Shown here one piece after another: positions 45,001-48,000 of a stretch of DNA of 64,000 nt (its first letter is position 1; the number at the start of each line of letters is the position of its first letter). Position numbers: made by a program. Origin of the DNA: Carcharhinus amblyrhynchos (Eukaryota); the NCBI GenBank assembly GCA_965287045.1, contig OZ336884.1, forward strand, positions 50,034,001-50,098,000, written 5' to 3'.

Positions 45001-48000
45001 TACAGTTACCTCAGAGGGTCATAGGACAAGAGTAAGTTACAGAGGTAGAGAGGGGTGAGGCCATGGAGGAATAAGAAAGCAAAGATGAAAATTTTAAAAT
45101 CCAGGCAGTGCAGACTGGAAACCAATGTATTCAGTGAGTACAGCTATGAAAGGTTAGGATATGTGCAGCAGAAGTTTGGATGAGCCTCATGTTTATGTGA
45201 GGCAGAAGATGGGAGGATGGCCAACGGTGTATTGGTGTGATGAAATCTTAAGGTAACAAATGTAGTGTTACCATTATTTTCAGGACAGTATGTTTACAGT
45301 ATTTGCAATGAGGATCTACTTGGATTAAATTTATGTCAATCATTAGCCATGTACAAAAACTGCCTAGTTTGGACATTAGTGATAGAAATATTCTCTCTAG
45401 CTTGACAAAGCATCAGATATCAAATTGCCACATTCGTCAACTAACTTTATAATTTGATTGCTTAAGTATGCTTTATTTTACATGAATCTGAAACAAAATA
45501 TAGACTGGTACAAGGGAGAATTAAAATCATAGAATCCCTACAATGACAATATGGATGCAGAAGGAGACCATTCAGCCTTTTGAATCTGCACCAACACTCC
45601 TGACAGAGTGTCTTACCTGAGCTACCTCCCTCACCCTATCCCTGTATCCCCACAATTTACATGACTAGTCAATTTAACCTATATATCTTGGTACATTAAG
45701 GGGCAATTTGGCATGGCCAATCCACCTAACCTGCACATCTTTGGCTGTGGAAGGAAACTGGAGCACCCAAAAGAAACCCACGCAGACATGGGGAGAATGT
45801 GCCAACTCCACATAAACAGTGACCCACGTCTGGAATTCAACCTGGGTCTCTGCTGCTGTGAAGCATCAAAAGGATGGTGGACATTTGGAACTCTCTTCTG
45901 CAAATAGAAAATGCTACATAAATTGGTCACTCTAAAACAGAGATTCATACCTGAAGGTAGCAAGGGATTTGGGACAGAGGTGGGTATTTGGAATGAAATT
46001 GCAAATCAGCTATCTGACTGATCTGCAGGTCACACTGAACAGCGGATCTGGATCAAAGGTTTTAATGGCGATGAGGGATTTCTTTTTAAATCCAAGAATT
46101 TTCTGGCATTCAGAAAACATATCTGCTTGTTTGTTACAACTGTTATATCAGCTAATAATAAGTGAAACTTGGTTCTAAATTTTACTTTCCTTTCTGCTTC
46201 TAAAATCTCAGCCAATGGGTTAGACATCCAGTATTTTTCCTGTAGAGCTATGACTGCCTCAACTGCAACAGTCACTGCTTTGATTTTCTCTGACCTACTT
46301 CACACAGAAGAAACTTCATTACTTCAACACTTAAAACCTCACCCTTAGCCACTCCAAGCTTCCACAAATCCCAGCAGCTTCTTATTCAGACTGAGCCAGC
46401 TGGTCAGTTGATCACCACATCATTTTTGTCATTGGTTACGTAGTTTACCAGGTTAGCTAACCCTTACAGATGTTACCATTGGTCACAGAACAACAGATCC
46501 AATGTTATCATTGGTTATCTTCTAACATCCATCTTGTACATCATGGGTAGAAACTCCCATCTTTTTTTCCTAAGTGTCAACTTCTGCCTGAAAACCAGCT
46601 CGTAGCTCTCTGGCTGGTCTCCAGACCTTGAGCCTTTCGGTAAAAAAATGAGTGGGTGGGGTGCACACAATGGAATGGGTATGGAAAAATTGGGAAACGT
46701 GATCTCTCTGGAGAGAATCACATTTCCTGATTCCGGATTTTCTGTCCATACTGGTGAACCCACTGATTGCTAACATGAGTTCAAATTCTCTCCAACTATG
46801 TTTGGAAGTTCAATCACTAACTTACCTCCTGAGCTGTGCAATTACTTTCATGAACTATATTCAAAATCACCCAAAATTATAGCTGCACCCTTACTCCTTT
46901 CAGGCTTTTGCAACTTATGGATTATGCAGCTTCCATCATTAAATGATTTATTTTCCATAGACCCACCAGAACTTGACCTTTTCCTGCAGTACATATTATT
47001 ACTGCTTTCTCTCCCACATTTTCTGTTTATCTTTGCAGAGTGCCGAATATAGATGTTCTCTCATAAACAATTGCTGGCAGTTTTGGAAACAATATCATGT
47101 TCACAACTGGTGACGTGGTTGAGTTACAGTTGTTCAGTTTGTTTTACCTAGAATACAGTTAAGAATGATTTAATTTTAAACTAAAGCATTCTATCAGTTA
47201 AAAACATGTCTGAGGGTGTTGCATTGGAGCTGTATTTTGTAGATTTTAGAAGCAGAAAGGAAAGTAAAATTTAGAACTAAGTTTCACTTATTATTAGCTG
47301 ATATAACAGTTGTAACAAATGAGGAGATATGTTTTCTGAATGCCAGAAAATTCTTGGATTTAAAAAGAAATCCCTCATCGCCATTAAAACCTTTGATCCA
47401 AATCCGCTGTTCAGTGTGACCTGCAGATCAGTCAGATAGTTGATTTGCAATCTCATTCTAAATACCCACCTCTGTCCCAAATCCCTTGCTACCTTCAGGT
47501 ATGAATCTCTGTTTTAGAGTGACCAATTTATGTAGCATTTTCTATTTGCAGAAGAGAGTTCCAAATGTCTACCATCCTTTTGACCATTTCTCAGCCAATG
47601 GGTTAGACATCCAGTATTTTTCTTGCAGAGCTATGACTGCCTCAACTGCAAGTCACTGCTTTGATTTTCTCTGATCTACTACTGTAACTGACACTGGCAC
47701 TGATCTCATAAATTTCTAGACGTTGCACCCATATTTCACTAGCCTTATTGACGAATGCTAATGCAATGAACTGACCACCCTGCTTTAACTTACTGATTAT
47801 TTTATAACTGTCAAAAACTGTAACCATTTGTTATAAAGATCTCTCTTCATATAAATTACTGAAAGTGTCAGCATTTTCTTTTGTGTATTTTCCTTTGAGA
47901 ACAATGTTGAGCTCAGAGAAGGACATTGAACAAATTATTTAAATGTAGCGATATCCTCTGAGGAAACTGAATAAGTGAATCAGGCAGCCTGGGCAACTTC

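What the first reader, a model, noticed from the sequence alone, without database searches (positions are those of the whole stretch)
45866..47680. Local duplication with an inverted part: A-B ... A'-B
Seen: 45866-46208 is the reverse complement of 47241-47583 (about 9 mismatches in 343 bp, counted by eye). It is followed directly by B (46206-46299), which also follows the right arm (47589-47680). The left block therefore equals revcomp(47241-47583) joined to 47589-47680, with 3-bp microhomology (tct) at the inversion junction and loss of the 5-bp spacer ccatt. The left block begins exactly where a V-SINE head is cut off. Inference: the right block is the donor, and it was copied about 1.4 kb upstream into a break by template switching (FoSTeS/MMBIR or templated end-joining). 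The geometry also matches twin-primed retrotransposition, but no LINE tail or TSD is visible. If transcribed, the arms could form a ~340-bp dsRNA stem with a ~1-kb loop (ADAR or siRNA substrate).
Basis: partly seen in the sequence, partly recalled or inferred. Interest (0 to 1): 0.65.

Follow-up and report, generated by a model that had tools for sequence, protein, structure and literature searches.

The report
Local duplication with one half inverted
A 434-base patch, copied from sequence about 1.4 kb downstream with its first 343 bases flipped, sits against a truncated SINE; it looks like an ordinary scar of error-prone DNA repair or replication, with no sign of a gene or mobile element.

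Summary
45866-46208 is the reverse complement of 47241-47583: 343 nt, 9 mismatches, no gaps. 46206-46299 repeats 47589-47680 in direct orientation, with 3 mismatches and one 2-nt indel. The two parts of the left block share TCT at their joint, and the right copy's 5-nt spacer is missing there.

These are the two most similar of 52 repeat pairs in the window. Neither part has another copy in the 64 kb. Both parts have diverged equally, and 11 of 12 substitutions are transitions. That fits one real, old event rather than an assembly error.

The adjoining SINE lacks about 25-30 nt of head that 8 of 8 other aligned copies keep. It is also far older than the duplication. So the left block is most likely the copy, laid into a break.

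I found no target-site duplication, poly(A), LINE-type tail, Pfam domain or Rfam match.

Best reading: a single DNA-level template-switch repair, a known class of complex structural variant. Only 1 of 3 junctions shows microhomology, so the mechanism is inferred.

Genome-wide copy number, orthologues, reads and transcription could not be checked. Interest is low.

The parts
45525..45865 (-). Old tRNA-headed SINE copy, 5'-truncated. Its head end abuts the left block at 45865/45866.
   Evidence: Aligned with 8 other in-window copies, all 8 of which extend about 25-30 nt further at the head. It differs at 24/166 positions (14.5%) from the leave-one-out consensus; the others range 11.7-25.1%. The 3' end near 45525 was read from the alignment and from the tail motif.
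45866..46208 (-). A' : inverted copy of A (left arm), inferred to be the derived copy.
   Evidence: 343 nt, 9 mismatches, 0 gaps against revcomp(47241-47583). 8 of the 9 mismatches are transitions.
46206..46208 (.). Junction J2: 3-nt microhomology TCT, shared by the end of A' and the start of B.
   Evidence: Read from the sequence and the flank comparison.
46206..46299 (+). B-left: direct copy of B.
   Evidence: 94 nt against 92 nt, 3 transitions plus one 2-nt indel.
46300..47240 (.). X: sequence between the left block and the donor, single-copy within the window. Its first 3 nt (TCA, 46300-46302) repeat the first 3 nt of the left block.
   Evidence: nhmmer finds no other copy in the window at E<=10. 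No Pfam match for its ORFs. TCA match.
47241..47583 (+). A: right arm, inferred donor.
47584..47588 (+). 5-nt spacer CCATT between A and B in the right copy, absent from the left block.
47589..47680 (+). B-right: inferred donor of B. Homology ends at 47680.

Best explanation
This is a real, one-off, DNA-level complex duplication.

Inferred history: a break or stalled fork arose at or in the head of an old SINE, at the 45865/46300 site. It was repaired by copying nearby sequence.
- The copying strand first ran leftward over A (47583 down to 47241).
- It then turned onto the opposite strand, using a 3-nt match (AGA/TCT), and copied B (47589 to 47680). This skipped the 5 nt between where it began and where it resumed.
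- It was then joined back to the chromosome at 46300.

The result is a 434-bp dispersed duplication whose first 343 bp are inverted. Probably the SINE head, and an unknown amount of sequence beyond it, was lost. This is the FoSTeS/MMBIR type of serial template switching. The A-to-B turn has the geometry of a leading-strand to lagging-template U-turn.

Shown: the structure, its junctions, the equal age of its two parts, the greater age of the SINE, and the absence of transposon or retroposon hallmarks.
Inferred: the direction (right to left), the single event and the polymerase mechanism.

The product is most likely neutral non-coding DNA. Its only built-in property is that a transcript through both arms would fold into a stem of about 340 bp.
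For: - Exact structure and junctions.
- A and B are the two most identical of 52 non-self repeat pairs in the window. The next best is 90.9%, and SINE pairs reach at most about 85%.
- No further copy of A, B, X or the right flank in the window (blastn; nhmmer E<=10).
- Equal divergence of A (9/343) and B (3/92), Fisher p = 0.72. 11 of 12 substitutions are transitions.
- 12 differences in 435 nt, against 0.87 expected at the nucleotide diversity reported for one shark (pi = 0.002; PMC10587355 passages), gives P = 2e-10. The copies are therefore not haplotypes or a polishing artefact.
- The SINE lacks the head that 8 of 8 aligned copies keep and is 14.5% from consensus, so it predates the event.
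- 3-nt microhomology at the internal turn.
- The two donor segments start 5 nt apart and run in opposite directions, as expected for a U-turn between the strands of one fork. That model is described in PMC10766183 (passages).
- Human complex variants of the types 'dispersed duplication with inverted duplication' and 'deletion associated with dispersed duplication' are catalogued and attributed mainly to MMBIR (PMC9510932 passages).
- No TSD above chance for any of 4 candidate units, no tail, no Pfam domain, no Rfam match.
Against: - Two of the three novel junctions (45865/45866 and 46299/46300) show 0 nt of microhomology in what can be compared. Microhomology is the usual signature of MMBIR. 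The acceptor's lost sequence is unknown, so this test is incomplete.
- The internal 3-nt match has about a 1/64 chance at a fixed junction, which is only weak evidence.
- The short inverted match used for the turn lies about 345 nt apart. The yeast ODIRA junctions use arms within about 100 bp (PMC10766183 passage).
- No ancestral allele, sequencing read or second genome was available.
- The geometry is equally what twin priming gives.
- The TCA shared by 45866-45868 and 46300-46302 could mean nothing was deleted. The coincidence with the SINE end would then be unexplained.
Confidence: 0.6

Rival explanations
1. Reverse-transcriptase-mediated copy. An unspliced local plus-strand RNA containing A-spacer-B was inserted by twin priming, or used to patch a double-strand break (endonuclease-independent insertion). 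This gave an inverted 5' part and a direct 3' part.
For: - The geometry is exactly that of twin priming: two fragments of one template in opposite orientation with a small internal deletion (PMC2837659 passages). Here the deletion is 5 nt and there are 3 nt of microhomology.
- Endonuclease-independent L1 insertions lack TSDs and poly(A), and 18 of 21 carry target-site deletions (PMC1920257 passages). So the missing hallmarks are not decisive.
Against: - No TSD above chance: 3 nt, matched or beaten in 250 of 300 random placements.
- No A-rich tail after 46299.
- The 3' end of B does not resemble the only LINE-type tail known from this window: score 15, with 13.7% of random windows scoring as high.
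- No reverse-transcriptase or other Pfam domain in the ORFs scanned.
- The donor lies only 1 kb away in cis, which RNA-mediated insertion does not predict.
- The substitution bias runs opposite to what A-to-I editing of a plus-strand RNA would leave: 1 site of the expected kind against 7 of the opposite-strand kind.
Confidence: 0.12
2. Same kind of event with the direction reversed. The left block A'-B is ancestral, and the right block (A, 5-nt filler, B) is the copy inserted between 47240 and 47681.
For: The repeat structure itself is symmetrical. Filler bases at template-switch junctions are known in such events (general knowledge, not from a call). Both flanks of the right block are single-copy in the window, so nothing contradicts an insertion there.
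Against: - The copied interval would have to begin, by coincidence, exactly at the end of an older truncated SINE.
- It needs a 5-nt untemplated filler and a re-copied TCT, whereas the opposite direction needs neither.
- There is 0 nt of microhomology at 47240/47241.
Confidence: 0.1
3. Two separate events. First a direct dispersed duplication of A-spacer-B was placed 1.4 kb upstream. Later the A part of the left copy was inverted.
For: Each step is a simple, common rearrangement. Equal divergence of A and B only dates the duplication, not the inversion.
Against: One inversion breakpoint would have to fall exactly on the outer edge of the duplicated block, and the other within the 5-nt spacer. 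No short inverted repeats that could mediate such an inversion were reported inside the block.
Confidence: 0.08
4. A is the long terminal inverted repeat of a DNA transposon or foldback element spanning 45866-47583, or A-B is a repeat family that landed here twice.
For: A 343-nt inverted pair enclosing about 1 kb formally resembles a long-TIR element. Genome-wide copy number could not be checked.
Against: - No TSD: 3 nt, matched or beaten in 236 of 300 random placements.
- No transposase or any Pfam match inside.
- No other copy in the remaining 62 kb. The 95% upper bound still gives only 0.135 expected copies within 1.4 kb.
- B lies inside the supposed element on the left but outside it on the right, which a TIR element does not explain.
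Confidence: 0.05
5. Assembly artefact, such as a chimeric or fold-back read or a collapsed haplotype.
For: Reads could not be inspected. Inverted duplications are a known artefact class of long-read assemblies (recalled, not from a call).
Against: - The copies differ at 12 sites, 11 of them transitions, with only one indel. That is far more than allelic diversity would give (P = 2e-10 at pi = 0.002).
- The arms are separated by 1032 nt of unique sequence.
- The block has three clean junctions in mid-window.
Confidence: 0.03

Closest known systems
Complex structural variants of the dispersed-plus-inverted duplication type (Mako classes 'DisdupInvdup' and 'DelDisdup'), attributed to MMBIR/FoSTeS (PMC9510932, passages read)
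   Same: Nearby sequence is copied to a new site a short distance away, partly direct and partly inverted, probably with loss of sequence at the insertion site. There are several novel junctions, with short microhomology at one or more of them.
   Different: Those are human polymorphisms called from reads against a reference. Here there is a single fixed, diverged example with no ancestral allele, and only 1 of 3 junctions shows microhomology. The paper's supplementary figures and tables, which hold the junction details, were not available to me.
L1 twin priming (PMC2837659, passages read)
   Same: The 5' part is inverted and the 3' part is direct, both from one contiguous template. There is a small deletion (5 nt) and microhomology at the inversion point.
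   Different: No TSDs, no poly(A) or LINE-type tail, no LINE sequence, and the donor lies 1 kb away in cis.
[quoted passage not shown]
   Same: The A-to-B turn links a strand running leftward to one running rightward from a point 348 nt ahead, ending 5 nt from where the first left off. This is what extension on the lagging-strand template back to the stall site would give. A short inverted match (AGA/TCT) marks the turn.
   Different: ODIRA gives inverted triplications through extrachromosomal hairpin or circular intermediates, and uses inverted repeats within about 100 bp. Here each segment is present only twice, the match is 3 nt and about 345 nt apart, and the product sits 1 kb away.
Short template-switch mutations, four-point model (PMC5453318, passages read); hairpin and miRNA birth by template switching (PMC8794818 and 10.1101/2023.04.19.537475, search listing only)
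   Same: A fragment copied in reverse complement from nearby creates a new inverted repeat, and hence a new potential RNA hairpin, in one step.
   Different: That model covers one switch-and-return over tens of bases. Its authors state that they do not attempt long-range switches or successive rounds. Here the inverted fragment is 343 nt, lies 1 kb from its source, and is followed by a second templated segment.
Hairpin-RNA (hpRNA) endo-siRNA loci of Drosophila (PMC10317233 and PMC10292708, search listing and abstract starts only)
   Same: A long inverted repeat that would fold into a long intramolecular dsRNA if transcribed (340 of 343 predicted arm pairs).
   Different: No evidence here of transcription, small RNAs or a target gene. 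The arms show no coding similarity.
Endonuclease-independent L1 insertion at double-strand breaks (PMC1920257, passages read)
   Same: A patch at a break without TSD or poly(A), usually with deletion of target DNA.
   Different: Those patches are L1 sequence. Here the patch is unique local sequence.

Membership tests
Replicative template-switch rearrangement (FoSTeS/MMBIR-type complex duplication) | Extra segments templated from nearby sequence, in mixed orientation, joined by two or more novel junctions | tested here: met
   There are three novel junctions. The donor lies 1.0-1.4 kb away. One segment is inverted and one is direct.
Replicative template-switch rearrangement (FoSTeS/MMBIR-type complex duplication) | Microhomology at the junctions | tested here: inconclusive
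   3 nt at 1 of 3 junctions and 0 nt at the other two in the comparable sequence. The lost acceptor sequence is unknown. A possible 3-nt TCA is shared across the insertion site.
Replicative template-switch rearrangement (FoSTeS/MMBIR-type complex duplication) | All parts arose in one event | tested here: inconclusive
   A has 9/343 differences and B has 3/92, Fisher p = 0.72. This is consistent with one age but cannot prove one event.
Replicative template-switch rearrangement (FoSTeS/MMBIR-type complex duplication) | An ancestral allele without the extra block exists | not testable with these tools
   No eukaryotic genome or read collection was on hand.
Twin-primed non-LTR retroposition | Two fragments of one template in opposite orientation with a small internal deletion or duplication | tested here: met
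   A is inverted, B is direct, and 5 nt are lost between them. Definition from PMC2837659.
Twin-primed non-LTR retroposition | Target-site duplications bounding the insertion | tested here: not met
   The best flanking match is 3 nt, and 250 of 300 random placements do as well or better.
Twin-primed non-LTR retroposition | A 3' poly(A) or LINE-type tail at the end of the direct fragment | tested here: not met
   No A-run after 46299 or 47680. Similarity of the B end to the SINE tail is at chance level, with 13.7% of random windows scoring as high. Tails of other LINE families in this genome are unknown to me.
DNA transposon, MITE or foldback element with long TIRs | Terminal inverted repeats | tested here: met
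   343-nt arms, 97.4% complementary.
DNA transposon, MITE or foldback element with long TIRs | Target-site duplication flanking the TIRs | tested here: not met
   The best match is 3 nt, and 236 of 300 random placements do as well or better.
DNA transposon, MITE or foldback element with long TIRs | Multiple copies in the genome | tested here: inconclusive
   0 further copies in the other 62 kb of the window. Genome-wide copy number is not testable here.
DNA transposon, MITE or foldback element with long TIRs | Transposase gene (autonomous form) | tested here: not met
   No Pfam match for any ORF of 50 aa or more between the arms.
Hairpin-RNA / long-dsRNA locus | An inverted repeat able to fold into a long stem | tested here: met
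   The MFE fold of 45866-47583 pairs 340 of 343 arm positions on the plus strand and 336 of 343 on the minus strand. This follows directly from the repeat.
Hairpin-RNA / long-dsRNA locus | Transcription through both arms; small RNAs or A-to-I editing | not testable with these tools
   No expression data were available. There is no Rfam match.
Hairpin-RNA / long-dsRNA locus | Selection to keep the stem paired | tested here: not met
   The arms have diverged as much as the unpaired control B. 6 of 8 stem transitions give G:U on the plus strand (one-sided p = 0.14), and B shows the same bias.
V-SINE superfamily (label given to the neighbouring SINE) | The conserved central V domain | not tested
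No SINE consensus library was on hand. Passages of PMC5499810 name a tRNA-headed SINE of sharks, SacSINE1, that carries the Deu domain.

The most novel reading that the evidence does not exclude
The template-switch event created, in one step, a vertebrate hairpin-RNA locus. If 45866-47583 lies in a transcribed unit, the RNA folds into a near-perfect 340-bp intramolecular duplex with a 1-kb loop. In vivo this would be hyper-edited by ADAR or diced into endo-siRNAs. That would be a large-scale counterpart of the birth of miRNA hairpins by short template switches.
Probability: 0.12. Interest if true: 0.35.

Novelty: new member of a known kind. Interest (0 to 1): 0.15.

Why it matters
It is a clean, base-resolved example of a complex local duplication in a non-mammalian vertebrate. 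All three junctions are preserved, and there is an internal control (B) for dating. It is useful as a data point on how such rearrangements form and how new long inverted repeats arise. It does not point to a new gene, a new element or a new mechanism, and nothing suggests a function.

Tried and rejected
- Other copies in the window. blastn with word size 9 and nhmmer at E<=10 found none for A, B, X or the right flank.
- Coding potential. Pfam on 46 of the 47 ORFs of 90 aa or more, plus 5 shorter local ORFs, gave 0 families; one ORF, 31512-31802, was left out by oversight. Pfam on 150 of the 363 ORFs of 50-89 aa, those between 26 and 53 kb, gave 0 above the curated cut-offs and two chance-level hits at E = 0.006 and 0.009. 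The other 213 were not scanned. All 8 substitutions inside the 80-aa frame 45936-46178 change the residue or create a stop (read), so that frame is not under coding constraint.
- Independent sightings of the A'/B junction. A search of the large protein collection with the 89-aa junction-spanning frame 46033-46299(-) found no candidate. This is uninformative, because non-coding shark-like DNA is probably not represented there.
- RNA families. Rfam over the whole window at gathering scores, and over 45400-47900 at E<=1, gave 0 matches. ARAGORN's only hit (19461-19542) is the head of another SINE copy.
- Tandem repeats: none in 44500-49000. Base composition is unremarkable.
- TSD search for four candidate units: nothing above chance.
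- LINE-type tail at the end of B: chance level.
- SINE head remnant after the block: none seen at 46300 onward (by eye).
- dupINVdup, inverted triplication and a simple inversion were considered and rejected, because the two B copies are direct and each segment occurs only twice.
- Pol-theta-type templated insertion was set aside on size. This rests on my recollection that such inserts are tens of bases, not on a call.
- Edited-RNA intermediate. The substitution bias is on the wrong strand for the twin-priming geometry.

Not attempted:
- The genome-contig collection, because it holds only bacteria and archaea.
- The metagenome and viral collections, which were closed.
- Supplementary files of papers, which were closed.
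- A spliced gene model. None was built, so there was no joined step to leave out.

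Full report
WHAT IS THERE.
- 45866-46208 is the reverse complement of 47241-47583: 343 nt, 9 mismatches, no gaps, with 1032 nt between the arms (blastn E = 1.6e-167).
- Immediately after the left arm, and overlapping it by TCT (46206-46208), comes 46206-46299. This repeats 47589-47680 in direct orientation, with 3 mismatches and one 2-nt indel (E = 7.6e-38).
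- In the right copy the two parts are separated by five bases, CCATT (47584-47588). These are missing on the left.
- Homology stops abruptly at every outer edge.
- The window has no N.

So the left block (434 bp) equals revcomp(A) + B. The right block (440 bp) equals A + 5 nt + B.

IS IT MORE THAN CHANCE, AND IS IT REAL?
- In an all-against-all comparison of the window, these are the two most similar of 52 non-self repeat pairs. The next best pair is 90.9% identical, and the many SINE pairs reach at most about 85%.
- Neither A, B, the 941-nt stretch between the blocks (X, 46300-47240) nor the right flank has any other copy in the 64 kb, even with nhmmer at E<=10.
- The two copies differ at 12 of 435 aligned sites. 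Eleven of the 12 are transitions and there is a single indel. That is the pattern of evolutionary divergence, not of sequencing or polishing error.
- At the nucleotide diversity reported for one shark (pi = 0.002; PMC10587355, passages), 0.87 differences would be expected between alleles. P(>=12) is 2e-10. I therefore regard an assembly artefact as unlikely, although reads could not be inspected.

ONE EVENT, AND WHICH COPY IS THE DONOR.
- A (9/343) and B (3/92) have diverged equally (Fisher p = 0.72). This fits a single origin.
- The left block abuts a minus-strand, tRNA-headed SINE (about 45525-45865). I aligned it with the 8 other in-window copies that reach the head region, leaving out 3 partial hits that do not. 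All 8 carry about 25-30 nt more head than this copy.
- The SINE differs from the leave-one-out consensus at 24/166 positions (14.5%). This is inside the 11.7-25.1% range of the other copies, and far more than the roughly 1.4% per copy accumulated since the duplication. The SINE was therefore there first.
- If the left block were the original, the copied interval would have to start, by coincidence, exactly at the end of an older truncated SINE, and the right junction would need five untemplated bases. If the left block is the copy, a break in or beside the SINE explains the truncation, and the junction needs only a 3-nt overlap.
- One caveat. The first three bases of the block (TCA, 45866-45868) recur as the first three bases after it (46300-46302). 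This may be chance (1/64 at a fixed position). Alternatively, the SINE was already truncated, nothing was deleted, and TCA served as microhomology or a 3-nt target duplication.

WHAT IT IS NOT.
- Transposon with long TIRs. There is no target-site duplication: the best match is 3 nt, and 236 of 300 random placements do as well. There is no transposase or any Pfam match and no other copy in the window. B lies inside the supposed element on one side and outside it on the other.
- Classical retroposition or twin priming. The geometry fits perfectly: an inverted 5' part, a direct 3' part and a small deletion at the inversion point (hallmarks in PMC2837659, passages). But there are no TSDs (250 of 300 random placements do as well) and no A-rich tail. 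The end of B resembles the SINE/LINE-type tail no more than 13.7% of random windows do. The donor also lies 1 kb away in cis.
- Endonuclease-independent L1 insertions also lack TSDs and poly(A), and 18 of 21 delete target DNA (PMC1920257, passages). A reverse-transcriptase-mediated patch therefore cannot be excluded, and I give it 0.12.
- Coding sequence. There is no Pfam family for 46 of the 47 ORFs of 90 aa or more plus 5 local ones. There is none above cut-off for 150 of the 363 ORFs of 50-89 aa, those from 26-53 kb. All 8 substitutions in the longest shared frame change the residue or make a stop.
- Known RNA. There are no Rfam matches.

HOW IT MOST LIKELY AROSE (inference).
- Read on the bottom strand, the block is [47680 to 47589] followed by [47241 to 47583]. 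A strand growing leftward leaves its template at 47589. It re-primes 348 nt ahead on the opposite strand at a 3-nt match, then grows back rightward to within 5 nt of where it left.
- That is the geometry of a leading-strand to lagging-template U-turn within one fork, the step at the heart of the ODIRA model (PMC10766183, passages). There, however, the inverted matches lie within about 100 bp and the outcome is an inverted triplication.
- Two further joins connect this chimeric strand to 46300 and to 45865. This makes three switches in all, which is serial template switching of the FoSTeS/MMBIR kind.
- Human complex variants of just this make-up ('dispersed duplication with inverted duplication', 'deletion associated with dispersed duplication') are catalogued and attributed mainly to MMBIR (PMC9510932, passages).
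- The weak point is that only the internal junction has microhomology. The two outer junctions are blunt in the sequence that can be compared. They may equally have been made by end-joining.
- The short template-switch model of Löytynoja and Goldman (PMC5453318, passages) covers the same principle. Its authors explicitly exclude long-range and multi-round events.

AGE.
- The Jukes-Cantor distance is 0.028.
- With the only pedigree mutation rate I found for a shark (7e-10 per bp per generation, 95% CI 1.4-14.1e-10; PMC10587355, passages), this gives about 2e7 generations, with a range of 1e7 to 1e8.
- This is rough. The species of the window was not identified by any search, and gene conversion between the arms would make the pair look younger.

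CONSEQUENCE.
- A transcript through 45866-47583 is predicted to pair 340 of 343 arm positions on the plus strand (MFE -855 kcal/mol) and 336 of 343 on the minus strand (-864 kcal/mol). This follows trivially from the repeat.
- There is no sign that the stem is maintained. The arms have diverged as much as the unpaired control B.
- The excess of G:U-compatible changes on the plus strand (6 of 8 transitions, one-sided p = 0.14) is shared by B. It is therefore a mutational bias, if it is anything.
- Whether the locus is transcribed is unknown.

COMPARISON AND NOVELTY. In kind, this is a known class of complex structural variant. As an instance it is new, and nicely resolved. It meets the structural criteria of a template-switch duplication. 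It fails two defining criteria of twin-primed retroposition (TSD, tail) and two of a TIR transposon (TSD, transposase), with the multi-copy criterion left inconclusive. I file it as a new member of a known kind, with low interest (0.15).

WHAT STAYED UNCHECKED.
- Orthologous loci, spanning reads and expression.
- A search of the protein collection with the junction-spanning frame found nothing, which is uninformative.
- The labels 'V-SINE' and 'shark'. Passages of PMC5499810 describe a tRNA-headed shark SINE, SacSINE1, with a Deu rather than a V domain.
- Supplementary files of the cited papers, which could refine the comparison of junction types, could not be seen.
- The hpRNA and miRNA-birth papers were seen only as search listings.
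- I do not take the window for human.

Noticed in passing
window 47241-47680 compared with 45866-46299: Strand-coherent substitution bias. Taken in the frame of the right copy's plus strand, 7 of the 12 differences have T in the right copy where the left copy has the equivalent of C, across both A and B. The reverse occurs at 2 sites, and none of the 7 is at a CpG. Pyrimidine-type transitions make up 9 of 11 (two-sided p = 0.065), and the 7:2 direction gives p = 0.18. This is probably chance or a local mutational asymmetry.
   Followed up: partly
window 6300-6670, 15187-15557, 16258-16628, 19433-19803, 28016-28386, 31487-31857, 34502-34872, 57442-57812, 45525-45865: The tRNA-headed SINE copies share the head and core but fall into two groups with different 3' halves. 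One group ends in a ...TTCTATGATT-type tail, the other in a different A/T-rich tail. This looks like module exchange between SINE subfamilies. ARAGORN calls the head of one copy a tRNA-like gene at 19461-19542.
   Followed up: partly
window 12681-12942, 55070-55332, 1562-1842: Another repeat family. Two direct copies are 90.9% identical over 263 nt, the third-best pair in the window, and a third copy in inverted orientation is about 80% identical.
   Followed up: no
window about 44715-45230, with relatives at 6999-7538, 39135-39519, 5443-5727, 8454-8628, 43626-43868: An interspersed repeat lies just upstream of the truncated SINE, with 5 diverged copies elsewhere in the window (nhmmer E from 3e-24 to 1e-6). 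The insertion site therefore sits in a repeat-rich patch, while the donor side is single-copy.
   Followed up: no
window 26656-26702: A 47-nt imperfect palindrome that matches its own reverse complement at 85%.
   Followed up: no
window 38719-39285 (+), 528-1091 (+): Two stop-free frames of 188 and 187 codons, long for 61% A+T sequence. They have no Pfam match and their translations look low in complexity. They are probably not genes.
   Followed up: partly
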